Shown here piece after piece: positions 1,054 to 46,956 of a DNA stretch of 57,804 bases. The stretch is from Patescibacteria group bacterium. GTDB taxonomy: Bacteria; Patescibacteriota; Minisyncoccia; Phycocordibacterales; UBA12079. Position 1 is the stretch's first letter. Every line of letters begins with the position of its first letter. The position numbers and the translations under genes are program-made. Below the pieces are notes generated by a model, which worked only from the letters and a program-made list of their open reading frames with translations, had not been told where the DNA came from and did not search any database. The DNA lies in NCBI GenBank assembly GCA_034661035.1, contig JAYEKM010000029.1, positions 1 to 57,804 on the forward strand. The letters are read 5' to 3'.

Positions 1054-1065
1054 TTATATTCAGTG

Positions 1066-1660: not shown

Positions 1661-1689
1661 ATTATAAGTCCAAACTAAACTAAATCCAA
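1661..1689 (-). promoter_or_regulatory. Candidate sigma70-type promoter for the pilin genes
   Basis: On the minus strand: TTGGAT (1689-1684), 17-nt spacer, TATAAT (1666-1661). It sits about 100 nt upstream of the pilin ATG at 1560. Confidence 0.4.
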
Positions 1690-1719
1690 ATCCAACAAGA
1701 AATAAATGTGGATAATTAA

Positions 1720-3034: not shown

Positions 3035-3044
3035 ATTTTTATTA

Positions 3045-4106: not shown

Positions 4107-4120
4107 AATAAATTAGTCAA

Positions 4121-6010: not shown

Positions 6011-6056
6011 ATCTATCAACTTTTAACGAATTAAACAACAGTTTGTTGTTTAAAAA

Positions 6057-6695: not shown

Positions 6696-6699
6696 AAAT

Positions 6700-7245: not shown

Positions 7246-7249
7246 TTTT

Positions 7250-7816: not shown

Positions 7817-7933
7817 TAATAATATTATACATTAAAAAAGAAACCTTTACACAACAGAAATAAACAAAACTGTGGATAGAAAACAAAACAACCAGTCCTA
7901 ATTTAATTCTGTGTATTTTTTTAATTTTTATAT

Positions 7934-32357: not shown

Positions 32358-33485
32358 TTATTTCTTCCCTTCTATAGCTTCTACGCCAACGAGAGTTCCT
32401 TCTGATATAAATTCCAACATAGCACCACCACCAGTGGAAATAAAGTCAAACTTATCTTCTAATCCTAAATTAGAAATACAGTGTTCGGTGTCACCGCCAC
32501 CAGCAATAGACTCAGCATTGCTTTCTGTGATAAGGCGAATCAAATCAAAAGTTGCATCGGAAAAACCTTTTGTATAGTAACCAAGCGGTCCATTCCACAA
32601 AATAAACTTAGATTTTTTGATTATTTTTTCTAATTCTGAAATGGTTTTAGGTCCAGCATCCATTATACTTTCGTTTCCTAAAACTTCATTAGGACTTTTT
32701 AATGAAACTTTACCTTGCTTTTCCACAAGGACATCAGTAGGTAAAACAACCTTTTCATTTTCCAGTAAATTACCAAAATCAAAATCCTCACCCGAAGTTA
32801 GAGATCCTCTCATATCAAAGCCTTTAGACTTAAAAACATCATTAGCTAAAGCCCCTCCCACAAAGACAACATCCGCAATATCTAGAAATTTTCTAATAAA
32901 AGGAATCTTTGTTTTTAATTTATTACCCCCAAGGATAAACAGTTTAGGAGAACTCGATTGAAATACCCTCTTTAATTCTTCAACTTCATTAATAAAAACA
33001 GGTCCAAAGAAAGATTCCATAAATTTAGGTAAACCAATAATAGAACTGTGTTTACGATGTGAAGCCGCAAAGGCTTCGTTTACGTAGATATCCCCTAATG
33101 AAGATATCTTTTTAGAGAATTCATTATCATTCTCCTTCTCTTCTCTAAACTGACGTATATTTTCAATTAAAACAATATCACCTGACTGCATATTTGAAAT
33201 TTTTTTATTTTGTTCATAATTAAAAATATCTTTAATAAAGATAATTTCAAAAAATTTTTTTAAATAATCGGAAACACATAACAAACTTTCTGAACCGTCC
33301 CTACCAATATGACTCAAGATAATAATTTTAGAACCTTCCTTTTTTAAAAAACCAATAGTTGTTAAAATTTTTTCTATCTTAAAATTATCAACAATTACAC
33401 CATCTACAACAGGAACATTTAAATCCAGTCTCAATAAAACTTTTTTATTTTTTAAGTTACCTTTTTGTTCAAAAATAGATCTCAT
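32358..33485 (-). CDS. pgk: Phosphoglycerate kinase
   Basis: N-terminal LLRLDLNVPV motif and C-terminal ISTGGGAMLEF motif. Confidence 0.9.
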   Translation of the reverse strand: MRSIFEQKGNLKNKKVLLRLDLNVPVVDGVIVDNFKIEKILTTIGFLKKEGSKIIILSHIGRDGSESLLCVSDYLKKFFEIIFIKDIFNYEQNKKISNMQSGDIVLIENIRQFREEKENDNEFSKKISSLGDIYVNEAFAASHRKHSSIIGLPKFMESFFGPVFINEVEELKRVFQSSSPKLFILGGNKLKTKIPFIRKFLDIADVVFVGGALANDVFKSKGFDMRGSLTSGEDFDFGNLLENEKVVLPTDVLVEKQGKVSLKSPNEVLGNESIMDAGPKTISELEKIIKKSKFILWNGPLGYYTKGFSDATFDLIRLITESNAESIAGGGDTEHCISNLGLEDKFDFISTGGGAMLEFISEGTLVGVEAIEGKK

Positions 33486-33505
33486 AAAAATATTTAGGGA
33501 AACAA

Positions 33506-34267
33506 TTAAACCCCACTAAGAACCTCTAAAAATTTGTTAAATTTTTCTTTATTTAAACTATCTCTTCCAACCAAAAAACCATCCACATCGGTCTCCCTTA
33601 ACTCTTCAGTTATCTTATAGTTAACTGAACCTCCATACAAAATTTTAACGTCTTTAAAATCACGAACATTATATTTGTCAACTAAAACTTTCTTAATAAA
33701 AATTGTAGCTTCTTGCAATTGTTTCTTAGTAATAGTCTCTTTAGCTTTTACTCCAACGGCCCAAACAGGTTCATATGCAATCAAAGTATTTTTTAAATAA
33801 TTTTTACTAACTCCTTCCAAATCATCCAAAATTTGTTTCTTCAAAAAGCGAAAATAATGTCCATCTTCATCTCTCTCTAGCTCACCAACGCATAAAATTA
33901 CGTTTAAACCGCTTTTTAAAGCTAATTTAACCTTTCTATTGATTAGTTCATCGCTATCTCCTGTTTTACGATTTTCAGAATGACCCAAAATAACAAATTT
34001 AGCTCCACTAGTTTTTAACATTTCAGGAGAAATCTCACCAGTCCAAGGTCCTTTCTCTTCACTAAAACAATTCTGAGACCCTAAGGAAATTTTGCTTCCT
34101 ACAGAAATTTTTTTTAACTCACTAATATAAACAGCTGGAGGACAAACAATAATCTCACCTCCTTTTGTTTTTTTCAACTGTTTTTTTGTATTAGAAAAAA
34201 TTGCCTTTGCCTCACGAAAGGTGGTAGGATTCATTTTCCAATTAGCAACTACTATTTTTTTTACCAT
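33506..34267 (-). CDS. tpiA: Triosephosphate isomerase
   Basis: VANWKMN, GHSENR and AYEPVWAVG motifs. Confidence 0.9.
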   Translation of the reverse strand: MVKKIVVANWKMNPTTFREAKAIFSNTKKQLKKTKGGEIIVCPPAVYISELKKISVGSKISLGSQNCFSEEKGPWTGEISPEMLKTSGAKFVILGHSENRKTGDSDELINRKVKLALKSGLNVILCVGELERDEDGHYFRFLKKQILDDLEGVSKNYLKNTLIAYEPVWAVGVKAKETITKKQLQEATIFIKKVLVDKYNVRDFKDVKILYGGSVNYKITEELRETDVDGFLVGRDSLNKEKFNKFLEVLSGV

Positions 34268-34304: not shown

Positions 34305-37300
34305 TTAAATAGGTTCATAAATAGGTATAGTTTGATCTGAAGTTATAGTTATATTAACAGGAGCTATTCCGTTACCAAAAATGGTAATCATTTTCTCACC
34401 AGTAAACCTGTAGGAAGCAAAAATCTTTAAAATTGACCCTAGACTATCCGTGAAGTAATCAGCAAAAGAGAGAGTCTCTGGAGTAAATGTAGCTGTATTA
34501 GTTGTCTCTTCTCCTGGAGATTCAGGTAAGCTTGATAGATCTGCTGTAAAAGAAACATCATTCCGGTAACCATTCCAAGAAATAACTTCAATGTCAATTC
34601 CTGGTTCAGTTTCAACACCTCCTCCAGCAAAGTCAGCTTCTACTTCGGTAGGTGTAGCAAATAAATTAAAGTAGGCAAGAGGCTCAAACGTAGCTGTGTC
34701 TTCGTAGCTTAATTCATGATAGCAAGTAAGAGTATAAACTGTTTCTTCGAGAATAATTTTGTCAATTAAATAATCTCCTACAGAGGCACAAGTAGCTTCA
34801 GAAGAACAAACATTTGTCTGGCTATAACCTGTGTCACTTTCTAAATCACACCTAACTACATTTTGTGTCTGCCACTCAGCAATCGGTTTGAGACCTGTTC
34901 TTTGGTTATGAACGTTGAAACTACCTGAAATTATCTCTGGAGGATCTACGACAACGGTAATTAAATCTGTTGAACAATTAGTTGTTCCTCCGTAACCTGT
35001 AAATGAACCTGTGTAGGTAATATCTTGAGTCTCTGTTACAGATGGATAATCCTCGACACTACCACTAGCCAGCGGAGAAATAGAACCTACCCCACGGTTA
35101 ATTGAAGCTGAATTAGTGTAATTTGAAGTCCAAGATAATGTCGTACTATCACCTAAGAAAACAATATCTTCTGATGAATTCAAGGTGCAGGTTGGAGAGT
35201 GAGGTGTAACAACAACACCTCCGTTACCAGCCCCTGCATCAGTACTACAAGTCCCCACCTCACCTCCATCTGAATCATCTTTTACAGTAAAAGTACAAAC
35301 CTCTGTCGCGGCTGGTCCATAAGGGAAATTAAAGACAACAGCTGGACTAGCTGGGCTATTCAAAGGAATTGAACCATAATCAGCACCGCCGGCAACAGGA
35401 CCTGTACAAGAATATTTTATATCAGAGGCGTAGGTTGAACTCCAAGTCAATATACTTGAACCAGGAGATGTAACAGAAGTAGGGTTAAAAGCAGCTGTAC
35501 AGATAGGACAATCTTTTACCCCTGGAACTTCTCTCGTCGTACCACAATTACTTGTCTGCGTCAGAGTAGTTCCCTCACAAGTGGTGCTAGCAGCTGGTTC
35601 CCATATCGTTGGAACACAACAATTTTTTGTTCCTGTAGCTGTCCGAGTTGTTCCGCAATTACTTGTCTGGGTAAAATTATCTCCACTACACTCAGAGGAT
35701 GTAGGAGGAGACCAGCTTGATGGAGTACAACCACCACAATTCTTTGTTCCTGTAGCTGTCCGAGTTGTTCCGCAATTACTTGTCTGGGTAAAATTATCTC
35801 CACTACACTCAGAGGATGTAGGAGGAGACCAGCTTGATGGAGTACAACCACCACAATTCTTTGTTCCTGTCGCTCCCCGAGTAGAACCACAATCACTTGT
35901 CTGAGTAAAATCATCTCCATCACACACAGAAGCCGTAGAAGGTGACCAACTTGATGGGGTACAAGATGTCGTACTAACGATTACAGTAGAGTTACTTCCA
36001 CAGGTAGCAGTCTTACCAGCGCTATCAGCTACAGTTATAGTACAAACCTGATTTCCAGTTTGATTTACATCAAAAGAAAGTGTTGCTGAACCAGAAACAG
36101 GTAAACCACTAGCCGCTGCTGTAATGGGTCCAGTACAAGCGTAACTTGCTGAAACAGCATTGCCACTCGAATACCAAATGGCTGTGCTAGAACCAGGAGC
36201 AACAACATTGTAATTAGACCAACTTAAATTACAAGAAAGTTCTTCAGCAGAATTGATAACCAAACTGTCAAAACACGAATATTCTTTACCAGAACTACTT
36301 ACTGCAGTTACTTTAAGTAATATCTGTTTGTAATTTTTAATTACATTCTTCAAATCACCTGACAATCCTGTTGCTGTTGCAAGATTAACAGTTAAAGGCT
36401 GAACAATCTTTAATGAAGAATTTGCATTTTCAGATGCCCACTTAAAATAAATTGAATCACCAACTTTAACACTTGACACATCTTGTCCTGATGAATTAAC
36501 CCAACTTACACTACAGGTAGGATTTGCTGGAGGACTAGTTGGATCTATTCTTAGAGTATCATCACACGAATATTCAACTCCATTGCTATTTTTCACAGTG
36601 ATGACACATTTTTCAGTTCCGGGGTTATCAAAAGTAAAAGGATAGGATCCGTTTGGATTAATTGAACCCCAACCATCATTCCAAGACAGCACTCCTGAAC
36701 AAGAATATTTAGCTGAAACGGCGTTAGAAGAGGAGCTCCAAGTAAGAGTGCTTGAATCACCAGTTTTTATTCCCCCATCATTATCATCCCACTCAACAGT
36801 ACAAGAAGGGGTCTGATCTGCCACAGTATATGTATAATCTTTGGAACCTATATACTTGAAGGTAGGAGTATATGAAGGACAACTAGGTCTACCCCAAATA
36901 TCATTGTAAGAACAAGAACTACACACTGGATAAGGTGGGGGTGACTTAATGTTAACGCACATACAACTCATACCTACCATACCACTGTCTACCTCATATT
37001 TTATATCGCAATTAGCACTTGGGTAATTATCAAATCCCCATTCCTCATCTAAACAACTACCAAGTGGCATTAATTGTGTCGCTGAATTTAAACAATAAGA
37101 AGACATATCATAAACACTTTCATTCGCATAAAATTTTAGAGTAATTGTATGTGTTCCTGGTGTTGTCGATTTAGTAGTATTTACTGGCGAAACCTGCGAC
37201 CTAACTTTTGTGGTAGGATTTTCATACATGGTTTTACCAACAGAAACACCGTCATGGAATACTTCAATATAACCGTCGTCGAGATTTAAATAAGCGTTAT

Positions 37301-38750
37301 TACACCCACCCGAAGTCAATTGTTGCAAACTAACAGGAACAGGATTGGAATTCATGTTTATACTATAAGTAAAAAATGCTCCATAACCATTACTACTATT
37401 AGGAATAGCCCCTGCCCAAGAAGCCGCGTTTACATCCTTAGCACCACCTAACAACATAGTTGTACCTATCAGTACAAGGAATAAAGCAGTATTTTTAATT
37501 TGTTGGAAAACATCATCTTGTTTTCTCCTTTTTCTAAACAGATATAGACCATAAAAAACAAGAACTACTATCACAACAAAAGTAATTAAGAAATATGAAT
37601 CCTTTTTTCCATTTTTAATACTCAAAATCGCTTCATCTAAAATTTGCTCTTCAGACTTAATTAGCAGCGAAACCTTAGGATCCTGACATCTTTTTAAAAT
37701 AGGGACACTGACAGAGGCTAACCCAAATGAATTATCATTAGGAGTGTAGTAAAAACGGTCAGAACAACCATCAATAACACCCTCAATAACAACATCATCT
37801 AATTTGGTTCCCATACCAAGCCTTGAATCTTGAAAATCATCAGCTGAAGGAGTCCAGAGAAAAGAAACTTCTGCTAAATCCCCTTCCAAGTAATACCCGC
37901 TATCCAATTTAATATTATGAACAGTAGCGCTCCCTCCTCTGACAACATAATGTATGGCAATTGAATTAGAGGTTATCTTTTCACCATTATCGTTTAAACC
38001 AGACAAAGATACTTTAGTGTCATAAGCTTGGGGTATTTCAGGCTTAGGTATAACAAAAGAAATCATCTCAATTCCCTCAGATTCAATGTTATTAGTCCCA
38101 TTTAAATTATCTTCATTAACAAAAACAATTTCCCCAAAAGTTGACCTTCTGTGAGTCTCGAAAATCGGTTCAAACTCTACTTTTTCTGGAGTAAGATTAC
38201 TAACTCTACAATTTAATACAAGAGTTTCTTCGGGAGCAACATCAACACCTTGTCTAATATTATAATTTTCTCCATTTCCTTCCCCAACAATTAAATAACA
38301 AGAATCGTTGACAATGTTAAGATACTCACCTGTTCCGTCTAAGACGATATCTCCAACATTATTAATAGCAACAGGAAGACCAGCTTCATTTCTAGCAACA
38401 ATTTCCAAACCGTAGGTTCCTCGCAAAAAAGCAGGGGCTGAATATTTTAAATCTCTAGAAAGAGTTTCCATTTCTCCGATATCTAACACCTCTGTATAAA
38501 CTTTCTCATCAATAGTACCCCCATCTTCTATTAGCCGAATTCCATATTTTATGCCCGACTGAGCCCCTTCTCCATTAGTTATGTCAAAGGAGACACTTAT
38601 GTCATTATCTTCATAAACCAAAACAGGATTACGAATTTCAATATCAACAGAAACCCAATCTTGTGCTTGAACTGTAAGACAAGCTGACCAAACAACCAAA
38701 AGAGACAGCGTAAATGCAACCCTTTCTATAAATCTAAAATTTTTTTTCAT
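34305..38750 (-). CDS. Giant (1481 aa) Cys-rich multi-repeat surface protein with internal TM pair and conserved C-terminal module
   Basis: Signal peptide, then a ~385-aa ectodomain, then a TM, RKRRK and a second signal-like hydrophobic segment (AKDVNA/AS). After that come about five ~90-aa Ig-like repeats with a conserved Cys pattern and four 39-aa Cys repeats. The last ~210 aa are shared with the 44271-45491 protein. Confidence 0.8.
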   Translation of the reverse strand: MKKNFRFIERVAFTLSLLVVWSACLTVQAQDWVSVDIEIRNPVLVYEDNDISVSFDITNGEGAQSGIKYGIRLIEDGGTIDEKVYTEVLDIGEMETLSRDLKYSAPAFLRGTYGLEIVARNEAGLPVAINNVGDIVLDGTGEYLNIVNDSCYLIVGEGNGENYNIRQGVDVAPEETLVLNCRVSNLTPEKVEFEPIFETHRRSTFGEIVFVNEDNLNGTNNIESEGIEMISFVIPKPEIPQAYDTKVSLSGLNDNGEKITSNSIAIHYVVRGGSATVHNIKLDSGYYLEGDLAEVSFLWTPSADDFQDSRLGMGTKLDDVVIEGVIDGCSDRFYYTPNDNSFGLASVSVPILKRCQDPKVSLLIKSEEQILDEAILSIKNGKKDSYFLITFVVIVVLVFYGLYLFRKRRKQDDVFQQIKNTALFLVLIGTTMLLGGAKDVNAASWAGAIPNSSNGYGAFFTYSINMNSNPVPVSLQQLTSGGCNNAYLNLDDGYIEVFHDGVSVGKTMYENPTTKVRSQVSPVNTTKSTTPGTHTITLKFYANESVYDMSSYCLNSATQLMPLGSCLDEEWGFDNYPSANCDIKYEVDSGMVGMSCMCVNIKSPPPYPVCSSCSYNDIWGRPSCPSYTPTFKYIGSKDYTYTVADQTPSCTVEWDDNDGGIKTGDSSTLTWSSSSNAVSAKYSCSGVLSWNDGWGSINPNGSYPFTFDNPGTEKCVITVKNSNGVEYSCDDTLRIDPTSPPANPTCSVSWVNSSGQDVSSVKVGDSIYFKWASENANSSLKIVQPLTVNLATATGLSGDLKNVIKNYKQILLKVTAVSSSGKEYSCFDSLVINSAEELSCNLSWSNYNVVAPGSSTAIWYSSGNAVSASYACTGPITAAASGLPVSGSATLSFDVNQTGNQVCTITVADSAGKTATCGSNSTVIVSTTSCTPSSWSPSTASVCDGDDFTQTSDCGSTRGATGTKNCGGCTPSSWSPPTSSECSGDNFTQTSNCGTTRTATGTKNCGGCTPSSWSPPTSSECSGDNFTQTSNCGTTRTATGTKNCCVPTIWEPAASTTCEGTTLTQTSNCGTTREVPGVKDCPICTAAFNPTSVTSPGSSILTWSSTYASDIKYSCTGPVAGGADYGSIPLNSPASPAVVFNFPYGPAATEVCTFTVKDDSDGGEVGTCSTDAGAGNGGVVVTPHSPTCTLNSSEDIVFLGDSTTLSWTSNYTNSASINRGVGSISPLASGSVEDYPSVTETQDITYTGSFTGYGGTTNCSTDLITVVVDPPEIISGSFNVHNQRTGLKPIAEWQTQNVVRCDLESDTGYSQTNVCSSEATCASVGDYLIDKIILEETVYTLTCYHELSYEDTATFEPLAYFNLFATPTEVEADFAGGGVETEPGIDIEVISWNGYRNDVSFTADLSSLPESPGEETTNTATFTPETLSFADYFTDSLGSILKIFASYRFTGEKMITIFGNGIAPVNITITSDQTIPIYEPI
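35510..35977. repeat. Four tandem 117-bp (39-codon) repeats, the central two identical
   Basis: 35626-35742 and 35743-35859 are identical by eye (period 117: tcctgtagct at 35631 and 35748). The flanking copies are diverged. They encode CTPSSWSPPTSSECSGDNFTQTSNCGTTRTATGTKNCGG. Confidence 0.85.
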
Positions 38751-38864: not shown

Positions 38865-40619
38865 CTATTTATTTCCTAAAACGTCATCAATAGAAACTAA
38901 ACCTTGCACTGCTTTAAAAAAAGCTTCTTCTCTTAATGTTAAAGTTCCCTCTTCTTTTACTTGTTTTTCAATTTTGTCTAAGGGAACTTTTTCCCTCAAA
39001 AGTTCTCTGGTCGCAGGGCTAACCCTTGATATCTCATTTATCATAATCTTTTCAGTACTTTTGCCTTTTGATTTGAAAAATTTTACTTCTGACCACGGTT
39101 GTTCGCTCAATAGAATATTCTCATTAACTAGAGCTACCATGACCTTATTTAGATCAACATACCTAGAAATACTCTTAATTTCAGAAACACTTAAATAATA
39201 CTCCTTTTTTTCCTCAGGAAGTCTGGGTATCATTTTCTGCAGGATAACTATCTCTAAACCATTTATTATTAAAGTAGAATCAATTTTAGAGGATGAGGTC
39301 ATTTTATAGACAACATCTGATGAGGATCTTGCTTTCATCTCAACGACAGACAGAGCTAATCTATCTTCATTCACAATACTAGATAATTTCAAAAGACTTG
39401 AAATAGATTTATTTGAATTTAAATCTTTTAAACCATCCACTGCGACAACATCACAATCCTGTTTAGCTAAATTATTTATCCCTTCTGAGACGCCAAAACC
39501 TATTTCTGAATTAATTACTACCTGACTTATTCCTGACATCTGGAAACCAATTGAATCTTCAACTGTCCCAATACTAAGACTGGGGTCTTTTAATATATCT
39601 AAAATCGTGTAAAAAGTAGTCGTCTTACCGGATTGTTTCCCGCCAGCAATCAAGATCATACCTTTCTTTCTACCTAAAACCTTATATAGCAAATCAAGTC
39701 CTTCTCCGTGAAAACCAGCTGCTTCTAGGGAAAAACCTGAATCACCTTTTCTTAATATATTTAAAACAGATTTCTCTCCCCATGAAGAAGGAATTACATG
39801 TATTTTGAGATCAATTTCTCTCCCATCAAAACCTACTTGGAAACGACCATTTTGACATAAGTTATCTGTATCTAATCTCAAATTAGCTAGCGTTTTAATT
39901 TTCAAAGCCAGAAAAGTAGCCGATCTTTTAGGTAATACCATTGCTGAATACAGACTACCATTTATCCTATACCTAATTAAAACATTATCCTCTTGAGGTT
40001 CTATATGGATACTAGAAACATTTTGAATCAAAGCGTGTTTTAAAAGCAATTCAAAAACTGAGTTTACTTGCTTACTTCTGGCTAATTCCAGTATTGATTC
40101 TCTGGGTAATTTCTTTAGTGTACCATTTGGAATAGTTTGGAAAGAAAGAGAGCCTTTTTGGATCATTGCCCCATATTCATTTTTTAGCATTCCTTGATAC
40201 TGTGAAATTGCCTTATTTAAAGAATCTTTATTGGTCAAATAAGGAACTACCTTTAAACCAACCATTTTCTTTAGAAAATCAACTTTTTCTAAACTGTCTA
40301 AATCCAAAACAGCAACTTTTAAGGATTTCTCATCTCTATCAAAGGCAATTATGTTATGTCTCCTTGTAATTGGTTCCGGTATGGTAGAAAGAATAGCCCA
40401 ATCAATTTTTTGTTTACTCAAATCAACGAAAGGAATCCCTGACACCTTTGACTGTAAACTCTGTAAATCTTGTTCGTTAAGAATTCCTTTCCTTATTAAA
40501 ATATCACATGATCTAAGTTTTTTTTCCTCTGCTTCTTTCACAGCCAAATCAAAATCATCCTGGTTTACTAAACCAAGTTCTAAAATTAAATCTTCTACTT
40601 TGTTTTTATCTATAAACAT
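38865..40619 (-). CDS. PilB/GspE-like protein with degenerate ATPase core
   Basis: GspE N-domain and P-loop GGKQSGKTTT are retained. Where PilB has DVIMVGEIRD this protein has DVVAVDGLKD, and where PilB has TGHLVFSTIHTN it has EDRLALSVVEMK. Confidence 0.75.
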   Translation of the reverse strand: MFIDKNKVEDLILELGLVNQDDFDLAVKEAEEKKLRSCDILIRKGILNEQDLQSLQSKVSGIPFVDLSKQKIDWAILSTIPEPITRRHNIIAFDRDEKSLKVAVLDLDSLEKVDFLKKMVGLKVVPYLTNKDSLNKAISQYQGMLKNEYGAMIQKGSLSFQTIPNGTLKKLPRESILELARSKQVNSVFELLLKHALIQNVSSIHIEPQEDNVLIRYRINGSLYSAMVLPKRSATFLALKIKTLANLRLDTDNLCQNGRFQVGFDGREIDLKIHVIPSSWGEKSVLNILRKGDSGFSLEAAGFHGEGLDLLYKVLGRKKGMILIAGGKQSGKTTTFYTILDILKDPSLSIGTVEDSIGFQMSGISQVVINSEIGFGVSEGINNLAKQDCDVVAVDGLKDLNSNKSISSLLKLSSIVNEDRLALSVVEMKARSSSDVVYKMTSSSKIDSTLIINGLEIVILQKMIPRLPEEKKEYYLSVSEIKSISRYVDLNKVMVALVNENILLSEQPWSEVKFFKSKGKSTEKIMINEISRVSPATRELLREKVPLDKIEKQVKEEGTLTLREEAFFKAVQGLVSIDDVLGNK

Positions 40620-40644: not shown

Positions 40645-41199
40645 TTATATTTCAATTTCCAAAGGAACGTCTAGTGCATCCTCTATTATAATTGGGGTAA
40701 ATTGAATTATCACTTCTTCTGCACTAAATTGTTTTGCATCCTTAATATCTTCTTTAGCTGTTACAGTTATTTGTTGACCAACTTTCAAGTCACTGAAGAT
40801 AACATCTTGTTTGTTAAACATTTCTGGAGGAAAAATCGGTTCTATCATTACTTCAGGATTTTCCATCTGTGCTTTTATCTTCTCATCAAACTCCTTCATC
40901 TCCTGCTGATACTGTGCTTGGTCCTTTTCTACAAATTTGTAAAACTTAGCCCCAGTTGTTTCAATAGTCCTTATATCTGAGCTACCAACAGAAGTTGGAT
41001 ATAATGGATAAATTTTCAAAACGATTTTATCACCGTTTATCTCTTGGATATCACCACTAATAGTCATTATTTCCATATCTTCTATACCCGGCATTGCTAC
41101 AAACCCTTCTTCATTATTTGACGGAACAGCCATTCCTAAAATAAAAAATATGAGGGCTGTGATTAAAATTATTACGACTTGGTTCATTTTTTTTCGCAT
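40645..41199 (-). CDS. Membrane-anchored hypothetical protein
   Basis: N-terminal TM and an acidic 150-aa ectodomain. Confidence 0.55.
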   Translation of the reverse strand: MRKKMNQVVIILITALIFFILGMAVPSNNEEGFVAMPGIEDMEIMTISGDIQEINGDKIVLKIYPLYPTSVGSSDIRTIETTGAKFYKFVEKDQAQYQQEMKEFDEKIKAQMENPEVMIEPIFPPEMFNKQDVIFSDLKVGQQITVTAKEDIKDAKQFSAEEVIIQFTPIIIEDALDVPLEIEI

Positions 41200-41267
41200 T
41201 TTTTGTTATTTGTTAAATTATAATTTTTTGACTATTATTTAGTAATTGAACTCTCTAATAAAAACTT

Positions 41268-43841
41268 CTATTTACTTTTAAGTAGCTTAATCTCATTTTT
41301 TAATTCATCAATTTGTTTTTGCTGTTCTTTTATTGCCTCAATCAATGGAGCTACTAAATTACTATATTGAATTGATTTTAATCCTGTTTCTTCATCAGTC
41401 ATTACTAATTCTGGGTAAACTTTTTCTACATCTTGAGCAATCAAACCAATATTAACACTATCACCCCGCGCTTCTTCATCCTTCCACTTAAAAGATACTC
41501 CTTTTAACTGCAATATCTTACTTAACGAACTATCCAATTCTGCAATATCTTTTTTAAGTCTTATATCTGAACTAATAGTATAACTACCTGTAGTAAGATG
41601 TCCATAATTATAGATATTGTCAGAAACAATATAGTTCAACCTATTTGTGCTGGCTGGGTCAAGATAATAAGCATGATAGTCACTATCCACAAATTTAGTA
41701 GCATAATGAGGGGAACTAGTCGTTAAGGTAAGTGTTACAGAATCTGAAGTGCCTCCCCCTGTTAGTCCTGTCCCCGCAACGACAGCTGTTATGTCACCAG
41801 AACCTGCGTTTACACAAGAAAAAGTCCCTTGGGCTGAGTTTATATTTTGCACAACTTGACCAACAGAACAGGCTCCTGTTAATTTTTTTTGAATAGAAGT
41901 AAGATACTGTCCACTAACAGAAATACCATTCAGATACAGAATGTTTAAATAAGAAGTACCATCCATATCCAAAAGATAACTGCTCGGATTATTTCGATCA
42001 CGGAAAATAGTCGCTCTCAGATCACTAAAAGCAGAAACACTGGATGGATCAACGTAATAACTAGTACTGTTAGCGTCATATTCCCTACCATTGTAACCAT
42101 AACTTCTATAAACATAAGTTGCACTACTTCCTCTTGCTGTTACTGTTGCTAATGTGTCTGACTCTGAAGTTATCCCTGCACTCGGCCAGCTACTTCTATA
42201 AACACCACCAAGAGTAATACCATTTACCGTAAGAGCGTTAAATCTAGAAGTACTTGCTGGGTTTGCGTAGTAATTTGTATCATTATAATCATAAAAGATA
42301 GGAGATCGAATATCTGAATAGCCATAAACTCTATCTGCAGCAACAGTATTTAACCTAGAGGTACTCGCTGGATCAAGATAATAACCAGTATTATCCCAAT
42401 CATGAATTTTGTCTGCGATATATATATCTGAAGTATTGTCTGATGAACTGCTTCCAACATATAAATCATTATAAGCATAAATACGACTTAATATAGAAGT
42501 AGAAGCTGGGTCTACATAATAACCAATGTTATTTTGATCATAAAAAATAGGGGCTCGCATAGAAGCATCAGCTCTAAAATATCCTGCTGTATACATATTT
42601 CCTGAACCATATATCTGCCAACTACCTGGACTAGAAGCACTCCCTAACCTAATTCCATTAACATTGACCATCTCTCTATTACCAGCACTGTTTCCTTGAG
42701 CTAAAACTTCATTTAATGTTTGGTCATCTGACGATGAAGGACAATAGGTACCGTTTTGACGACAAACATTTTGCCCCCCCGAAACAACGTTAGAGGCAGT
42801 AAGCGTACCACCAACAGTTACACCGGCTGAAGTCGTTGTCAATCTAGTAGCTCCATTGTACATTGCATAAAAAGGTCCATTTCTAGTACCATAATAAATC
42901 CACTCATTATCGCGGTCATTATATCCACCAATATGACTACTATGCATCATGAGTGTTACGTAATTAGCATAGTTCATCCCGCTCCAACCGCCTCTTGTGC
43001 CAGATATTTGCCATGAACCATAATTAGAACTAGTATTTGGATAAAAATGTGCTCCGTTCACACTCGTTGAATACAAACCATACCCTCTTACATCAAGCCA
43101 GCTACCAAGTCTTCCGTAATTAGAACCACCTTGCTGTAACTCAAAACCATTGTTTAATCTTAAAACACTAACTTCTTTAACAGCATGATTATTCATATCC
43201 AAATCTTGTGTAGCTGAATGATTCCCAAGATTATCTGCTCCTGATGGCCAAGCTGAAAGAGACACACCACCAAGATTTATTGTACCTACTTTCAGAGTAT
43301 TTGGAATATAGACGTTATTTGCTCCACTGGTAGCAGAATCGTTAACTGACATAACTAAAGTACTCATATTGTAATCATTATAGAAACGAATACCGTTGTA
43401 ACTAGCGTTGGCTCCTAGTTTTATCCCGGTATGGAAAGCTATTCTTAAATCAGGGTAGGGAGAAGTCCATGATCCTGATTCTCTATAGATAGCATAAGCA
43501 CTACTCATTCCACTAGCAAAATACATTCCGTAAGGATGATCTGTAGATACACCATAATTATTAGCTAAATAAAAAGAACCTAACTTATTGGTGTATGAAG
43601 TACTACTAGGATCAATGTAATAACTTGTACTTGGGTAGTCGTAATAGACAGGGGACCTCATATCTGTATTTGATTGCAAAGAACCTTGTTTTAGTTGGAA
43701 GTTAGCTCCAACATTAAGTGGTTCTGAAGTATTAGAAGAAGGTGGGTTAGCTGTTGGTCCTGTCCAAGCTGATACCAAACTAAAGTAAATTATGAAAGCT
43801 ACTGCTGATAGGATTATTATTTTTGTTGTCTTGATTTGCAT
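41268..43841 (-). CDS. Tail-fibre-like secreted fibre protein with C-terminal S74-type intramolecular chaperone (autoproteolytic) domain
   Basis: Signal peptide MQIKTTKIIILSAVAFIIYFSLVSA (alternative upstream ATG at 43883). Repeated YYxDPxSTS motif. The last 100 aa read SDIRLKKDI...GVSFKWKD...IGLIAQDVEKVYPELV...coiled coil. Confidence 0.75.
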   Translation of the reverse strand: MQIKTTKIIILSAVAFIIYFSLVSAWTGPTANPPSSNTSEPLNVGANFQLKQGSLQSNTDMRSPVYYDYPSTSYYIDPSSTSYTNKLGSFYLANNYGVSTDHPYGMYFASGMSSAYAIYRESGSWTSPYPDLRIAFHTGIKLGANASYNGIRFYNDYNMSTLVMSVNDSATSGANNVYIPNTLKVGTINLGGVSLSAWPSGADNLGNHSATQDLDMNNHAVKEVSVLRLNNGFELQQGGSNYGRLGSWLDVRGYGLYSTSVNGAHFYPNTSSNYGSWQISGTRGGWSGMNYANYVTLMMHSSHIGGYNDRDNEWIYYGTRNGPFYAMYNGATRLTTTSAGVTVGGTLTASNVVSGGQNVCRQNGTYCPSSSDDQTLNEVLAQGNSAGNREMVNVNGIRLGSASSPGSWQIYGSGNMYTAGYFRADASMRAPIFYDQNNIGYYVDPASTSILSRIYAYNDLYVGSSSSDNTSDIYIADKIHDWDNTGYYLDPASTSRLNTVAADRVYGYSDIRSPIFYDYNDTNYYANPASTSRFNALTVNGITLGGVYRSSWPSAGITSESDTLATVTARGSSATYVYRSYGYNGREYDANSTSYYVDPSSVSAFSDLRATIFRDRNNPSSYLLDMDGTSYLNILYLNGISVSGQYLTSIQKKLTGACSVGQVVQNINSAQGTFSCVNAGSGDITAVVAGTGLTGGGTSDSVTLTLTTSSPHYATKFVDSDYHAYYLDPASTNRLNYIVSDNIYNYGHLTTGSYTISSDIRLKKDIAELDSSLSKILQLKGVSFKWKDEEARGDSVNIGLIAQDVEKVYPELVMTDEETGLKSIQYSNLVAPLIEAIKEQQKQIDELKNEIKLLKSK

Positions 43842-43863
43842 ATGTTTTTTATTAATTATATTT

Positions 43864-44253
43864 TTAATCAATGTAAGTATCATCAGAAATAAAAATGGAT
43901 TCCGGACCCTCTAAGTTTTCATTAAAATCTGGCACTGTTTTTTCAGAGGGTGACATATAAGTTTCTTGTGGGGAAGAAACTGATTTAGGTTTCGTAGAAA
44001 CAATATCCTCAGATAAAGGCAACTCTTGATGTTCTTCTGCAGGAACAACCTCCTTAATACTTTCAGAAGAATAGATATCTCCAGGAGAAGGAATATATGT
44101 ATCATGAGAAATATTATATTCTTGTATGTCAGGGTCTGAACTCCTAGTCAAAACTCCTACTACTGCAAAAAATATTAACAAGATAATTAACAAGAATAAA
44201 ACAACTATAATTACCCTTAATTTATTATTTTGATTACTTTTGTTATTCACCAT
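43864..44253 (-). CDS. Small membrane-anchored hypothetical protein
   Basis: N-terminal TM and a Ser/Pro/Glu-rich tail. Confidence 0.5.
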   Translation of the reverse strand: MVNNKSNQNNKLRVIIVVLFLLIILLIFFAVVGVLTRSSDPDIQEYNISHDTYIPSPGDIYSSESIKEVVPAEEHQELPLSEDIVSTKPKSVSSPQETYMSPSEKTVPDFNENLEGPESIFISDDTYID

Positions 44254-44270: not shown

Positions 44271-45491
44271 TTAAATTTCTTCATAAACTGGCTCGATATT
44301 TCCAGCATCAATGATTATACTAACTGGGTACAAACCATTTCCTTCAACAGCGACTGTTTTCTGACCGATAAAGTGATACGAAGCAAAAACTTCTAATGCA
44401 GACCTTGTACCAGCTGTAAAATATTCAGCAAAAGACAAACTCGGACGAGAGAAAATAGCTAGATTAGTAGTTCCGTCTCCAGGAGATTCTGGTAGTTGAG
44501 ATAAATCAGCTGAGAAAGAGATATTACTATTAAAACCATTCCAAGAAGTCACTCCTATTAATGATACTGGTGTAGTAGTTGCTCCTCCCCCAGAGAAATC
44601 GATTGTAACCCGATTAGGACTTCCATTTAATTCAAAATATCTCAAAGGAGTGTGTGTTTCTGTGACACTCATCCCTATATCATTAAAACATGTTATGGTA
44701 TAAGTTGTTTCTTCCATCACAGCCATATCTACAAGTAAATCCATTTCTTCACATTGGTTTTCATTATGACAAACGTCTAAATCTTCATAACCAGTATCGC
44801 TCACTAGGTCACAGGAAACAACATGTTCTGTCTCCCAGACAGCTCTAGGTCTATTACCAGTCACAACACTAGCCACTTGGAAAGTACCTAGCCTTATCAC
44901 AGGAAAGTCACCTATAAATTCTACCCCTCCATAGGCAGGATTGAAGTCAACCCAACCAACAACTTCACCAGCCCAAGCATAACCTTCAAAAAAATTAGTG
45001 TTCTCGTTAAGGACAACTCCGTAATTTATACTATCTGTAGTTTGTTTACTTAAACTTATCCAACCATCCCAACCATCGTCAGCATTCATTCCAGCCAGAG
45101 CTTTAGCCCAGCCGTTTAATTCTAAACCATTTAACTTTGCTCGACAGACCCCCGTCGGACACCCGCTCAGCTCGTTCTCATTAAAACTAATCCAACCGAC
45201 ATTATCACTCCAAGCATAGCCAGATAATTTTTTATCAGCTCCAATACTAACCCCATAATTGGATGTACTACAAGTATCTGGGTCAATACAATTAAAACCA
45301 ATCCAACCAATGTTATCACTCCAGGCATAGCCAGATATATTATCATTAATTGCTGCTTTAGCCACAGGTAAAGCATAGTCACTCTGCCCTCCCTTTTCAC
45401 CAAAACTGTAAGCTATTAACAATAATAAAAATAGAATAATTAAAACCAGTACCCAGTTTTTAAAAAATTTGTTTTTTATTATTTGTTCCAT
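44271..45491 (-). CDS. Secreted repeat protein (GYAWSxNxGWIxFN repeats) with the shared C-terminal module
   Basis: Signal anchor. Three repeats: SGYAWSDNIGWIGFN, SGYAWSDNVGWISFN, EGYAWAGEVVGWVDFN. The C-terminal ~210 aa are collinear with the end of the 1481-aa protein. Confidence 0.7.
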   Translation of the reverse strand: MEQIIKNKFFKNWVLVLIILFLLLLIAYSFGEKGGQSDYALPVAKAAINDNISGYAWSDNIGWIGFNCIDPDTCSTSNYGVSIGADKKLSGYAWSDNVGWISFNENELSGCPTGVCRAKLNGLELNGWAKALAGMNADDGWDGWISLSKQTTDSINYGVVLNENTNFFEGYAWAGEVVGWVDFNPAYGGVEFIGDFPVIRLGTFQVASVVTGNRPRAVWETEHVVSCDLVSDTGYEDLDVCHNENQCEEMDLLVDMAVMEETTYTITCFNDIGMSVTETHTPLRYFELNGSPNRVTIDFSGGGATTTPVSLIGVTSWNGFNSNISFSADLSQLPESPGDGTTNLAIFSRPSLSFAEYFTAGTRSALEVFASYHFIGQKTVAVEGNGLYPVSIIIDAGNIEPVYEEI

Positions 45492-45825: not shown

Positions 45826-46956
45826 ATGTTTGATTTAAAAGTAATTCATTCAGTTCTCGACCAGTTAGAACAGGAAAAAGGAATCTCTAAAGCCTCTTCA
45901 ATAGAAACAATTAAATCAGCTTTAGCTAGTGCTTATAAAAAAGAGTACGGTAAGAGAGGTCAAATCATTAGAGCTGATTTTGACATAGATAGTGGAAAAA
46001 CAGACTTTTTCCAAATAAAGATAGTTGTAGATGATACTCGAGTTAAAACAGAAGAGGAGGAAGACGTTGAGGGAGATGATAGAATCCGTTTCAATCCTGA
46101 ACACCATATTTTGATTGAAGATGCCCAAAAAATAAAGAAGGATGCCGAATTAGATGAAGAAATAATCTTTCCGTTGGAACCAAAAAGTGATTTCGGAAGA
46201 ATAGCTGCCCAGACAGCTAAACAAACCATTATTCAAAAGATTAGAGAAGCTGAAAGAGGGTCTATTTCTAAAGAATTTGGCGGAAAACAGGGAGAAATTG
46301 TCAGCGGAATCATCCAAAGAGTAGAAAGAGGTAATATTTTTGTTGATTTGAAAAGGGCCACAGGAATACTTCCTTATTCTGAACAAATCCACTCAGAAAG
46401 GTTTAAGCCAGGAGAACGAATCAGAGCTTATTTATCTTTAGTTGAAGAAACATCTCGAGGAATATTTTTAAGACTTTCTCGATCTCATCCTCAATTTCTT
46501 TACAAACTTTTTGAGACAGAAGTACCTGAAATAGCCAGTAAAACTGTAGAAATAAAGAACATTGTCAGAGAAGCTGGTTCCAGATCAAAAATAGCCGTCC
46601 ATTCAAACGATGAGAACATTGACCCAATTGGATCATTGGTTGGTCAAAGGGGGGTTAGAGTTTCAACAGTCATGAGTGAATTAGGTGGTGAAAAGATAGA
46701 TATTATAGAATGGTCAGAAGATCCTAAGAAATTTATTACTGAATCCCTTTCACCGGCTAGAATCCTCAGTATTGAATTAGATGAAAAAGAAAAAAAGGCT
46801 GTTGTTGATGTAACTGAAGATCAACAATCACTAGCAATTGGGAAAGGTGGTCAAAATGTTAGATTAGCCGCTAAGTTGACTGGTTGGAAAATTGACATAA
46901 AAGGCATAGGGGACGAAAATGTGGAAACTGAAGAGGATAATAATGAAGAAAAATAA
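45826..46956 (+). CDS. nusA: Transcription termination/antitermination factor NusA
   Basis: N-terminal domain, S1 domain (GEIVSGIIQRVERGNIFVDL) and two KH domains (GxxG: GQRG, GKGG). Confidence 0.9.
   Translation: MFDLKVIHSVLDQLEQEKGISKASSIETIKSALASAYKKEYGKRGQIIRADFDIDSGKTDFFQIKIVVDDTRVKTEEEEDVEGDDRIRFNPEHHILIEDAQKIKKDAELDEEIIFPLEPKSDFGRIAAQTAKQTIIQKIREAERGSISKEFGGKQGEIVSGIIQRVERGNIFVDLKRATGILPYSEQIHSERFKPGERIRAYLSLVEETSRGIFLRLSRSHPQFLYKLFETEVPEIASKTVEIKNIVREAGSRSKIAVHSNDENIDPIGSLVGQRGVRVSTVMSELGGEKIDIIEWSEDPKKFITESLSPARILSIELDEKEKKAVVDVTEDQQSLAIGKGGQNVRLAAKLTGWKIDIKGIGDENVETEEDNNEEK

What the first reader, a model, noticed from the sequence alone, without database searches (positions are those of the whole stretch)
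38865..40619. PilB-like protein keeps the P-loop but has lost the catalytic Glu and the His box
I aligned it by eye to the intact PilB in this window (4295-6010).
- The P-loop GPTGSGKTTT corresponds to GGKQSGKTTT, so it is retained.
- The Asp-box EDPVE corresponds to EDSIG.
- The Walker B/catalytic segment DVIMVGEIRD corresponds to DVVAVDGLKD, so the Glu is replaced.
- The His box TGHLVFSTIHTN corresponds to EDRLALSVVEMK, so both His are lost.
- The GspE N-terminal domain is retained.

In GspE/PilB-family ATPases the Walker-B Glu and the His-box residues are needed for hydrolysis. This paralog is therefore probably a nucleotide-binding but non-hydrolysing scaffold or regulator.
Basis: partly seen in the sequence, partly recalled or inferred. 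Interest (0 to 1): 0.65.

Follow-up and report, generated by a model that had tools for sequence, protein, structure and literature searches.

The report
Orphan degenerate PilB pseudo-ATPase
This gene is an intact, selectively maintained copy of a pilus-assembly motor that has lost almost every residue needed to burn ATP and has also lost its membrane partner and pilin genes, and similar orphan "dead motors" have arisen repeatedly in ultrasmall Patescibacteria, so the protein probably has a second job that does not need the motor activity.

Summary
ORF 38865-40619 (minus strand, 584 aa) is a full-length PilB/GspE-type protein. It keeps the P-loop (GGKQSGKT) but has lost:
- the Mg-binding Asp-box Glu (now Gly358);
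- the catalytic Glu (now Gly396);
- both His-box histidines (now Arg420 and Glu427);

It is not a pseudogene. Against its closest relative dN/dS is 0.107 with no indels, and about 27 orthologue clusters are full length.

It is the positional orthologue of an active "PilB2". In related Paceibacteria, PilB2 sits in the same nusA|tpiA-pgk slot and is followed by PilC2 and three pilins. Here those genes are gone.

In a rough housekeeping-gene tree, orphan degenerate PilB2 arose at least three separate times. In an exhaustive profile search, 86 of about 146 top representative clusters were degenerate.

The N-terminal docking domain is the best-preserved part and the catalytic core is the most relaxed. 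The catalytic Glu is still present in 16 of 27 clade members, so its loss is specific to this lineage.

Most likely the protein is a non-hydrolysing, probably still nucleotide-binding, adaptor or regulator. Its partner is unknown. No description of such proteins turned up in the literature searches.

The parts
38865..40619 (-). Degenerate orphan PilB2 (584 aa), intact ORF
   Evidence: ORF list. Pfam T2SSE + MshEN. AF2 model pLDDT 85.7, with Foldseek top hits GspE 4pht, PilF 5oiu, PilB 5tsh/5zfr. dN/dS 0.107 against L089.
40185..40439 (-). N1 domain (GSPII/MshEN, aa 61-145), the best-preserved domain
   Evidence: PF05157 at 2.7e-13. Residues invariant in active PilB2 are retained at 0.60 in this clade and 0.64 in other degenerate lineages, against 0.37 in canonical PilBs of other bacteria.
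39759..39806 (-). N2 segment holding the former arginine fingers: K272 (Gm R271) and N287 (Gm R286)
   Evidence: Alignment to Gm PilB and residue roles. N287 is Asn in 24 of 27 clade members. Coordinates checked.
39615..39644 (-). Walker A / P-loop GGKQSGKTTT, which fits GxxxxGK[ST]
   Evidence: G326, S330, G331, T333 and T334 are conserved. Lys332 is Arg in 8 of 27 clade members.
39546..39560 (-). Asp box EDSIG: first Glu kept, Mg-coordinating Glu (Gm E357) replaced by Gly358
   Evidence: Gly in 25 of 27 clade members.
39423..39452 (-). Walker B DVVAVDGLKD: atypical Gly (Gm G394) -> Asp395, invariant in the clade; catalytic Glu (Gm E395) -> Gly396
   Evidence: Ser in the closest relative L089. 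Glu in 16 of 27 clade members, Lys/Arg in 10.
39399..39422 (-). aa 400-407 (LNSNKSIS). The last six residues (402-407, SNKSIS) are an insertion at the pore-loop-1 position, present only in the P0001-P0011 subclade
   Evidence: Alignment gap pattern. Pore loop 1 = Gm D398/E400.
39333..39368 (-). Former His box EDRLALSVVEMK: Gm T411 -> E418, H413 -> R420, H420 -> E427
   Evidence: HMMER local alignments to solved PilB structures stop at about aa 404, just before this region.
44271..45491 (-). Conserved upstream neighbour: membrane-anchored surface protein with four 'SGYAWSDNIGWISFN' repeats and two Ig-like domains
   Evidence: Found upstream of the degenerate PilB2 in all clade loci with enough flank, and upstream of active PilB2 in L097, L098, L108, L115 and L124. 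AF2 pLDDT 86. Ig-like Foldseek hits.
40645..44253 (-). Variable cargo between the GYAWS-repeat protein (the upstream surface protein above) and PilB2: a 129-aa TM protein, an 871-aa 'AWTGPT..PP' protein with an S74 chaperone C-terminus, and a 184-aa TM protein
34305..38750 (-). 1481-aa surface protein in the place where active loci carry PilC2 + pilins. Its C-terminal 218 aa are 47% identical to the C-terminus of the GYAWS-repeat protein
32358..34267 (-). tpiA and pgk, the downstream boundary of the conserved slot
   Evidence: Pfam. Synteny.
45826..46956 (+). nusA, divergently oriented, the upstream boundary of the conserved slot
   Evidence: Pfam. Synteny.
188..9094 (-). Complete canonical T4P-1 cluster: pilM, pilN?, pilO, an ORF of unknown function, pilB1, pilT, pilC1 and 3 pilins. 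This is the only pilus machinery in the window
   Evidence: PilB1 and PilT carry all canonical motifs. PilB1 also co-occurs with degenerate PilB2 in MAGs CAYWKC01, CAYLHD01 and JAGMBS01.

Best explanation
The gene encodes an orphan, catalytically degenerate orthologue of PilB2. PilB2 is the assembly ATPase of a second, minimal (Com-like) type IV pilus locus that Paceibacteria carry between nusA and tpiA-pgk.

Shown:
- In this lineage the platform gene pilC2 and the pilin genes are gone from the locus.
- The protein keeps the three-domain PilB fold and a P-loop.
- It has lost the Mg-binding Asp-box Glu, the catalytic Glu, both His-box histidines and both arginine fingers.
- It evolves under purifying selection, at about the rate of TIM and PGK.
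- The N1 domain is the best-preserved part.
- Comparable orphan degenerate copies arose independently in other lineages.

Inferred:
- It no longer works as a hexameric motor.
- It probably still binds Mg-nucleotide, through the P-loop and the newly acquired Walker-B Asp395.
- It is kept for an ATP-hydrolysis-independent role as an adaptor or regulator that docks through N1/N2.
- The most economical partner is the remaining T4P-1 machinery (PilM / PilC1 / PilB1 / PilT). The partner is not established.
For: - Motif losses under three independent alignments, with residue roles from PMC5424180.
- Fold retained: AF2 pLDDT 85.7, Foldseek E 1e-33 to GspE, PilF and PilB.
- Selection: dN/dS 0.107, uniform over N1, N2, CTD and C-terminus, with no indels over 1755 nt.
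- Rate: identity to orthologues tracks TIM/PGK, whereas active PilB2 tracks NusA.
- Within the same MAG pairs PilB1 is 75-84% identical and the degenerate PilB2 52-60%.
- Same nusA|tpiA-pgk slot as active PilB2 + PilC2 + pilins. No PilC in any degenerate locus.
- The clade is monophyletic on a long stem, root-to-tip 1.09 against 0.20.
- Independent origins in the housekeeping tree, with contexts.
- 86 degenerate representative clusters.
- Domain asymmetry: N1 retention 0.60-0.64 against 0.37 in unrelated canonical PilBs; CTD core 0.42-0.50 against 0.75.
- Former catalytic positions drift between the two closest sequences (G/S, G/D, E/K) while the rest is constrained.
- Walker A Lys is Arg in 8 of 27.
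- Precedents for hydrolysis-independent roles of PilB and PilT are in the review PMC11656802.
Against: - No biochemical or expression data exist.
- Nucleotide binding is inferred only from P-loop conservation. In other degenerate lineages the P-loop Lys is replaced (P0261 Ile) or the motif is lost (P0372), so binding cannot be the universal reason for retention.
- 16 of 27 clade members keep a canonical hhhhDE Walker B, so some relatives might still hydrolyse slowly.
- The closest relative (L089) carries one in-frame TGA.
- No direct evidence links the protein to T4P-1. The N1 domain is only distantly similar to that of PilB1 (24% overall identity).
- Hexamer-interface conservation was not tested.
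- The trees are neighbour-joining on few genes.
Confidence: 0.6

Rival explanations
1. It is a rewired but still working ATPase or NTP-dependent switch. The Mg ligand has moved from the Asp box (Glu -> Gly) to a canonical Walker-B Asp (Gly -> Asp). The clade therefore hydrolyses ATP slowly by the ordinary ASCE hhhhD(E) chemistry, acting as a timer rather than a motor.
For: - D395 is invariant in 27 of 27, and G358 is present in 25 of 27.
- Loss of the Asp-box Glu is associated with gain of the Walker-B Asp across representative clusters: odds ratio 36.6, p 1.3e-8, not corrected for phylogeny.
- 16 of 27 clade members read hhhhDE.
- In PilT-like ATPases E357 substitutes for the missing Walker-B acid.
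Against: - This particular protein has Gly at the catalytic position, and its closest relative has Ser. Ten others have Lys or Arg.
- Both arginine fingers and both histidines that contact the gamma-phosphate are gone.
- Walker A Lys is Arg in 8 of 27.
Confidence: 0.12
2. Its retained function belongs to the locus rather than to T4P-1. It acts from the cytoplasmic side in the export, anchoring or display of the neighbouring surface proteins: the GYAWS-repeat protein, the 'AWTGPT' tail-fibre-like protein, and the giant proteins that share the Ig-like C-terminal module ending in [YFW]-E-E-[IF].
For: - The GYAWS protein lies upstream of PilB2 in both active and degenerate loci.
- Only in the window's degenerate clade did it gain the C-terminal module, which is shared with the 1481-aa protein that occupies the former PilC2/pilin position.
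- The genes share a strand and have short gaps.
Against: - Independent degenerate lineages keep PilB2 without these neighbours. In L172 nusA is directly followed by the PilB-like gene; L170 has only small ORFs; L171 sits beside ftsEX.
- All these neighbours have ordinary N-terminal signal or anchor sequences and no prepilin motif.
- The locus has no membrane platform.
Confidence: 0.15
3. It is a decaying relic (pseudogene in progress) of a lost pilus system, with no function of its own.
For: - PilC2 and the pilins are lost, and some lineages have lost PilB2 completely (L096, L142, L147).
- Rate is accelerated about fivefold on the stem.
- One in-frame TGA in the closest relative.
Against: - dN/dS is 0.107 in every domain, with no indel over 1755 nt.
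- About 27 full-length orthologue clusters span a divergence at which TIM is only about 50% identical.
- There are 100 retained and 43 consistently switched positions.
- N-terminus and length are conserved.
Confidence: 0.04
4. The ORF is kept mainly because it carries cis-acting signals (promoter, or translational coupling) for the essential tpiA-pgk genes just downstream.
For: The PilB-like gene lies directly upstream of tpiA-pgk on the same strand in nearly all loci.
Against: - This would not produce protein-level purifying selection over all 584 codons.
- In the window a 4.4-kb gene separates it from tpiA.
- Lineages that lost PilB2 keep tpiA-pgk.
- The promoter scan is not above shuffled expectation.
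Confidence: 0.03

Closest known systems
PilB, the type IVa pilus extension ATPase (solved: G. metallireducens 5TSG/5TSH, G. sulfurreducens 5ZFR, T. thermophilus PilF 5OIU)
   Same: Same three-domain architecture (N1 GSPII/MshEN, N2, CTD) and same predicted fold, with Foldseek E about 1e-32. The P-loop is retained.
   Different: It lacks the Mg-binding Asp-box Glu, the catalytic Glu, the His box and both arginine fingers. Its Walker B reads hhhhD instead of hhhhG. There is no adjacent PilC or pilins. It scores 233 bits against the 675.65 cut-off of TIGR02538.
Active PilB2 of Paceibacteria (e.g. P0094/L007, P0054/L008, L098) with PilC2 and three pilins in the nusA|tpiA slot
   Same: Positional orthologue. 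It is 38-41% identical, closer than the window's own PilB1 at 24%. Same flanking genes, and the same upstream GYAWS and 'AWTGPT' proteins.
   Different: The active proteins have all canonical motifs, are followed by PilC2 and pilins, and evolve as slowly as NusA.
Second pilus system (PilB2/T4P-2) of Saccharibacteria TM7x (PMC11623550)
   Same: This is a precedent that Patescibacteria run two pilus systems with separate PilB proteins. PilB2 there is non-essential and involved in host binding.
   Different: TM7x PilB2 is described as a working extrusion ATPase with its own PilC2/M2/N2/O2. Orthology to the Paceibacteria PilB2 was not tested.
ComGA / Com pseudopilus of Firmicutes
   Same: The ancestral locus has the same minimal make-up: ATPase, platform and a few pilins, with no PilMNO or PilT. 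comEC lies about 12 kb away in the window.
   Different: The NCBIfam ComGA model scores 89 bits against a cut-off of 300. ComGA lacks the long N1 domain. The resemblance is in architecture only.
Hydrolysis-independent roles of pilus ATPases: M. xanthus PilB regulating exopolysaccharide, and Walker-mutant PilT acting through PilU (review PMC11656802)
   Same: These show that PilB/PilT-type proteins can signal or recruit without hydrolysing ATP. That is the kind of role proposed here.
   Different: Those are laboratory mutants or second functions of active enzymes. Here the inactive state is natural, fixed and orphaned.
FlaH of the archaellum (ATP-binding, non-hydrolysing RecA/KaiC-like partner of the motor FlaI). 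This comparison rests on my own knowledge and was not checked here
   Same: A nucleotide-binding, non-catalytic P-loop protein kept in a type-IV-filament machine as a regulatory or structural partner of the real motor.
   Different: It belongs to a different protein family (KaiC-like, not PilT-like). It is encoded inside the machine's operon, not orphaned.

Membership tests
PilT-like secretion ATPases (Pfam T2SSE, PF00437) | Domain HMM above the gathering score | tested here: met
   157.3 bits against 24.9, aa 183-581
PilB/GspE assembly-ATPase subfamily | N-terminal GSPII/MshEN (N1) domain | tested here: met
   PF05157 at 50.1 bits against 23.1. Foldseek covers the GspE N1-containing chains 4pht.
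PilB/GspE assembly-ATPase subfamily | Walker A GxxxxGK[ST] | tested here: met
   GGKQSGKT, aa 326-333
PilB/GspE assembly-ATPase subfamily | Atypical Walker B (hhhhG) followed by the catalytic Glu (Gm E395) | tested here: not met
   VVAVDG: Asp395 and Gly396
PilB/GspE assembly-ATPase subfamily | Asp-box Glu that coordinates Mg (Gm E357) | tested here: not met
   Gly358
PilB/GspE assembly-ATPase subfamily | His box with two histidines (Gm H413, H420) | tested here: not met
   Arg420 and Glu427
PilB/GspE assembly-ATPase subfamily | Two arginine fingers in N2 (Gm R271, R286) | tested here: not met
   Lys272 and Asn287
PilB/GspE assembly-ATPase subfamily | Encoded with a PilC/GspF platform protein and pilins | tested here: not met
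   No T2SSF gene within the locus or in any of the clade loci. The only pilC in the window is in the T4P-1 cluster, about 36 kb away.
PilB/GspE assembly-ATPase subfamily | NCBIfam equivalog score (TIGR02538 PilB / TIGR02533 GspE) | tested here: not met
   233 against 675.65, and 217 against 630.25. The active CPR PilBs also fall below these cut-offs, at about 500 bits.
PilB/GspE assembly-ATPase subfamily | Hexameric ring and ATP hydrolysis | not testable with these tools
   Only a monomer model is available. No multimer prediction or biochemistry was possible.
ComGA competence ATPase | NCBIfam NF041000 equivalog score | tested here: not met
   89.2 against 300
MshE-type c-di-GMP receptor | Tandem 24-residue RLGxx(L/V/I)(L/V/I)xxG(L/V/I)(L/V/I)xxxxLxxxLxxQ motifs in N1 | tested here: inconclusive
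   I compared by eye only, recalling the motif from memory. aa 35-58 match about half of the motif positions. No binding test or curated motif scan was run.
Pseudogene | Frameshifts, premature stops, or dN/dS near 1 | tested here: not met
   Intact 584-codon ORF. dN/dS 0.107 and no indels against L089. About 27 full-length orthologue clusters.

The most novel reading that the evidence does not exclude
Patescibacteria harbour a large, recurrently evolved class of orphan PilB-derived pseudo-ATPases. After the second pilus system is lost, its motor protein is repeatedly kept. It is stripped of catalysis and inter-subunit coupling but retains its N1 docking domain, because PilB2 has a conserved hydrolysis-independent function. 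That function might be gating or targeting the remaining pilus machine, or coupling envelope and pilus status to another cellular process. In part of the class the Mg ligand has been moved back to a canonical Walker-B Asp.
Probability: 0.45. Interest if true: 0.72.

Novelty: new variant of a known kind. Interest (0 to 1): 0.62.

Why it matters
Type IV pili are the main known interaction device of the ultrasmall, host-dependent Patescibacteria. Their motor ATPases have so far been treated as interchangeable "PilB" annotations.

A naturally inactive PilB that is under purifying selection, and that evolved several times after its pilus was lost, has three consequences:
1. PilB-type proteins probably have a separable, non-motor function. 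This has so far been hinted at only by laboratory mutants in Myxococcus and Vibrio.
2. Nature has already run the experiment on which PilB surfaces serve that function: N1 is kept and the active site is discarded.
3. Counting "PilB" genes overestimates the number of working pilus systems in CPR genomes.

The correlated Glu -> Gly (Asp box) and Gly -> Asp (Walker B) exchange is also a neat test case for why PilT-like ATPases use an atypical Walker B.

Tried and rejected
- **Single-protein scan for the upstream 406-aa protein in genome contigs.** The patterns were too specific and gave no confirmed hit. I repeated it with an alignment.
- **Structure prediction of the 406-aa protein from locus-derived sequences.** I redid it with database homologues.
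- **Promoter and terminator scan of 33.4-46 kb.** Counts were not above shuffled expectation, so it says nothing about operon structure.
- **Literature searches.** I searched for a described natural degenerate PilB, for 'pseudo-ATPase', and for a ComGA moonlighting precedent. I found no description of such proteins and retrieved no usable ComGA text. The library lacks many subscription papers, so absence is weak evidence.
- **Alternative genetic code (UGA = Gly) as the explanation for the TGA in L089.** Rejected. The window is densely coding under table 11 and two window genes end in TGA.
- **Considered and rejected: the degenerate protein is a recent duplicate of the window's PilB1.** It is only 24% identical to PilB1 but about 40% identical to active PilB2.
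- **Considered and rejected: the GYAWS-repeat neighbour is a pilin.** It has no prepilin motif, and its fold is Ig-like plus a novel beta domain.
- **Not done:** cluster names for other degenerate representatives gave no taxonomy. Hexamer-interface analysis and whole-genome absence of pilC2 could not be done.
Full report
**1. The observation**

Pfam finds a full T2SSE domain (PF00437, 5.8e-46, aa 183-581) and an N-terminal MshEN/GSPII domain (PF05157, 2.7e-13).

BLASTP against the window's canonical PilB (4295-6019, minus) gives 24% identity, E 2e-49, and reproduces all four motif pairings made by eye. So do a 118-sequence MAFFT alignment and HMMER alignments to solved PilB/PilF structures.

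The alignment to G. metallireducens PilB is ungapped through this region, with chain numbering equal to native + 20. Using it together with the residue roles in PMC5424180:

| Gm PilB residue | Role | Window protein |
|---|---|---|
| E357 | Mg-coordinating Asp-box Glu | G358 |
| G394 | atypical Walker-B Gly | D395 |
| E395 | catalytic Glu | G396 |
| H413 / H420 | His box | R420 / E427 |
| R271 / R286 | arginine fingers | K272 / N287 |

The P-loop GGKQSGKT still fits GxxxxGK[ST]. HMMER's local alignments to the solved structures stop at about residue 404, which shows independently how far the His-box region has diverged.

The AF2 model is confident (pLDDT 85.7). Foldseek places it on GspE, PilF and PilB with E of about 1e-33 to 1e-30, so the fold of all three domains is kept.

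**2. Relatives**

A database search gave 1613 relatives. The top ones fall into two sharply different groups:
- P0002-P0030 (45-65% identity, about 27 clusters at 90%) share the degenerate motifs.
- P0031 onward (38-41% identity) are fully canonical: GPTGSGKT, EDPIE, MVGEIRD, TGHLVLSTLHT.

Within the degenerate clade:
- Walker A is G....SG[K/R]TT, with Arg replacing Lys in 8 of 27.
- The Asp box is E[D/N]SIGF, with Gly in 25 of 27.
- The Walker-B Gly is Asp in 27 of 27.
- His1 is Arg or Lys, and His2 is Glu.
- R286 is Asn in 24 of 27.
- The catalytic Glu is kept in 16 of 27 (reading hhhhDE), is Lys or Arg in 10, and is Gly only in the window protein.

The other losses define the clade.

The clade is monophyletic and nested among active sequences on a long stem. 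Mean root-to-tip distance is 1.09 against 0.20 (NJ). In the GTDB species set, 11 MAGs labelled Patescibacteria or Paceibacterota carry it at 48% identity or more.

**3. Not a pseudogene**

The closest relative (L089, a 3.2-kb JGI contig) aligns over all 1755 nt without a gap, at 85.9% nt identity. Nei-Gojobori dN/dS is 0.107 (dS 0.63) and is uniform across the regions: N1 0.113, N2 0.089, CTD 0.119, C-terminus 0.099.

Between these two sequences the former catalytic positions differ (G/S at the Glu position, G/D at the Asp-box position, E/K at His2) while the rest is conserved. That is what one expects if the active site is no longer under selection but the protein is.

L089 does carry one in-frame TGA at codon 351, where the window has GGG. 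Because the downstream part shows the same low dN/dS, this is either very recent or a sequencing error.

Across the clade, the identity of the PilB-like protein to the window tracks TIM and PGK:

| Comparison | PilB-like | TIM | PGK |
|---|---|---|---|
| L001 | 65 | 75 | 72 |
| L003 | 57 | 68 | 62 |
| L014 | 50 | 51 | 54 |

NusA is 73-90% in the same comparisons. Active PilB2 evolves as slowly as NusA: for L007 against L008, PilB 76, NusA 74, TIM 53 and PGK 49. In three MAGs that hold both proteins, canonical PilB1 is 84, 78 and 75% identical to the window's, and the degenerate protein 60, 58 and 52%. Constraint is therefore relaxed roughly twofold but remains substantial.

**4. Genomic context: the key result**

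Every degenerate-clade locus lies in the same slot:

trigger factor - pyrophosphatase - nusA (leftward) | (rightward) a ~400-aa surface protein ... PilB-like ... tpiA - pgk - HIT (leftward) - recJ

This is shown, with window annotation.

The active ~40% relatives sit in the same slot, but are followed by a PilC-type platform gene and pilins. ORF maps of L097, L098, L115 and L124 give the ancestral order:
1. a small TM protein
2. the GYAWS-repeat protein
3. the 'AWTGPT..PP' protein
4. PilB2
5. PilC2
6. three prepilins
7. a 430-620-aa protein
8. tpiA

This is a minimal, Com-like pilus locus with no PilMNO or PilT. tblastn finds no PilC in any degenerate locus.

The window protein is therefore the positional orthologue of PilB2, orphaned by loss of its platform and pilins. 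It is not a diverged copy of the window's PilB1, to which active PilB2 is only 38% identical. The window also carries a complete canonical T4P-1 cluster (pilM ... pilB1, pilT, pilC1, three pilins) at 188-9094.

**5. The phenomenon is general and recurrent**

An exhaustive profile search over 1.84 billion representatives, using the clade profile, returned 150 top hits. After alignment to the family HMM, 86 of about 146 full-length representatives deviate at 3 or more of the 11 catalytic positions.

I looked up four of them:
- Three (P0261, P0372, P0339) sit in the same nusA|tpiA slot without PilC.
- One (P0307) lies beside ftsEX, also without PilC.
- P0261 has Ile for the P-loop Lys, and P0372 has lost the P-loop altogether.

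A NusA+TIM+PGK neighbour-joining tree shows the following:
- The window's clade is monophyletic and sister to an active-PilB2 genome (L098).
- L169 (degenerate) is sister to L008 (active, with PilC2).
- L156, L170 and L172 (degenerate) are placed elsewhere.
- L096, L142 and L147 have lost PilB2 entirely.

That makes at least three independent transitions to the orphan degenerate state and at least three complete losses. The other degenerate lineage is also constrained: 42-49% identity where TIM is 57-61% and PGK 45-56%. These trees are rough and need confirmation.

**6. What is kept and what is discarded**

Of 265 positions invariant in active PilB2, the clade retains 100, has consistently switched 43, and has relaxed 66. 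The relaxed positions concentrate in the CTD core (35 of 100) and the N2 arginine-finger loop.

| Domain | This clade | Other degenerate lineages | Canonical PilBs of unrelated bacteria |
|---|---|---|---|
| N1 | 0.60 | 0.64 | 0.37 |
| CTD core | 0.42 | 0.50 | 0.75 |

These figures are the retention of PilB2-specific invariant residues. The docking domain is preserved in a lineage-specific way while the engine is let go.

The His box changes convergently: H413 to Arg or Lys in 46 of 86, and H420 to Glu or Asp in 33 of 86.

Loss of the Asp-box Glu is associated with gain of the Walker-B Asp (12 of 25 against 3 of 122; odds ratio 36.6, p 1.3e-8, not corrected for phylogeny). In PilT-like ATPases E357 stands in for the missing Walker-B acid, so this looks like the Mg ligand being moved back to the canonical position.

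**7. Mechanism**

Shown: loss of the catalytic, Mg-binding and inter-subunit sensing residues; a retained fold; a retained P-loop in this clade; purifying selection; orphan status; recurrence.

Inferred: the protein cannot act as a cooperative hexameric motor. It probably still binds Mg-nucleotide through the P-loop and Asp395. It is kept for a role that needs its N1/N2 surfaces. In T2SS the N1 domain binds GspL, and in T4P it is predicted to dock on PilM (PMC11656802).

The same review documents PilB acting as a regulator independently of pilus assembly in M. xanthus, and catalytically dead PilT working through PilU. The most economical partner is therefore the remaining T4P-1 machine. This is not demonstrated, and a partner outside the pilus system is equally possible.

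The rivals (a slow rewired ATPase, a role in handling the neighbouring surface proteins, decay, and a cis-regulatory role) are weighed in their own sections.

**8. Comparison and novelty**

The protein belongs to the T2SSE superfamily by domain and fold. It fails five of the defining catalytic and coupling features of PilB/GspE and the genomic-partner criterion. It scores far below the NCBIfam equivalog cut-offs: 233 against 675.65 for PilB, and 89 against 300 for ComGA.

The searchable literature on CPR pili (PMC6744442, PMC11623550) and on PilB regulation (PMC11656802) does not describe natural degenerate PilB proteins. I rate it a new variant of a known kind: a pseudoenzyme lineage derived from a well-known motor.

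**9. Neighbourhood notes**

The upstream 406-aa protein is an N-terminally anchored surface protein. It has four 'SGYAWSDNIGWISFN' repeats with no structural match, and two Ig-like domains. Its family has more than 1200 unannotated members. Its C-terminal 218 aa are 47% identical to the end of the 1481-aa protein downstream of the PilB-like gene.

Extracellular proteins of this locus in many genomes end in [YFW]-[E/Q/L]-E-[I/F]. These features do not explain the PilB-like protein, because other degenerate lineages lack them.

Noticed in passing
L089:1692-1694 (orthologue of window codon 351, window 39567-39569): The closest relative of the gene (86% identical) has a single in-frame TGA where the window has GGG (Gly), which splits it into 350-aa and 224-aa ORFs. 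dN/dS downstream of the stop is as low as upstream, so it is a very recent nonsense mutation or a sequencing error.
   Followed up: partly
window 44271-45491 (-): A 406-aa membrane-anchored surface protein with four 'SGYAWSDNIGWISFN'-type repeats. This N-terminal domain has no PDB fold match and no Pfam family. It is followed by two Ig-like domains. More than 1200 relatives exist, all 'hypothetical', and it is a conserved companion of PilB2 loci in Paceibacteria.
   Followed up: partly
window 34305-34961 (-) and 44271-44924 (-); also L001, L097, L098, L115, L096: A ~218-aa C-terminal Ig-like module is shared (47% identity) by the 406-aa and 1481-aa proteins. More generally, extracellular proteins of this locus in many genomes end in a [YFW]-[E/Q/L]-E-[I/F]-COOH motif (PVYEEI, PIYEPI, LFEEF, SWLEI). 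This could be a sorting or recognition tag. Its function is unknown.
   Followed up: partly
window 41268-43883 (-): An 871-aa protein with an 'AWTGPTxxPPxxN' N-terminal motif after a TM anchor, and a C-terminal Peptidase_S74 intramolecular-chaperone domain of the kind found in phage tail fibres and endosialidases. Shorter relatives sit just upstream of active PilB2 in other genomes.
   Followed up: partly
window 29015-30478 (-) and 30759-32297 (-): Two tandem streptopain-like cysteine protease genes (Peptidase_C10), each with a Spi inhibitor pro-domain.
   Followed up: no
window 17244-17317 (+): A tRNA-Ile with anticodon UAU, instead of the usual lysidine-modified CAU route for reading AUA.
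   Followed up: no
window 11729-12781 (+): A 350-aa protein that combines a penicillinase-repressor-type winged-helix domain with a Fic/DOC domain.
   Followed up: no
representative proteins P0241-P0389: Across degenerate PilB-like representatives, loss of the Asp-box Glu goes with gain of a canonical Walker-B Asp (odds ratio 36.6, not corrected for phylogeny). The His box is convergently replaced by Arg/Lys ... Glu/Asp.
   Followed up: partly
L096, L142, L147: Some Paceibacteria have lost PilB2 altogether from the nusA|tpiA slot while keeping the GYAWS-repeat and 'AWTGPT' surface proteins.
   Followed up: partly
L008 and L169 (both GCA_040384245.1): One NCBI assembly holds two different contigs. 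Each carries the full nusA...tpiA-pgk-recJ block, one with active PilB2 + PilC2 and one with a degenerate orphan. The assembly therefore appears to mix two genomes.
   Followed up: no
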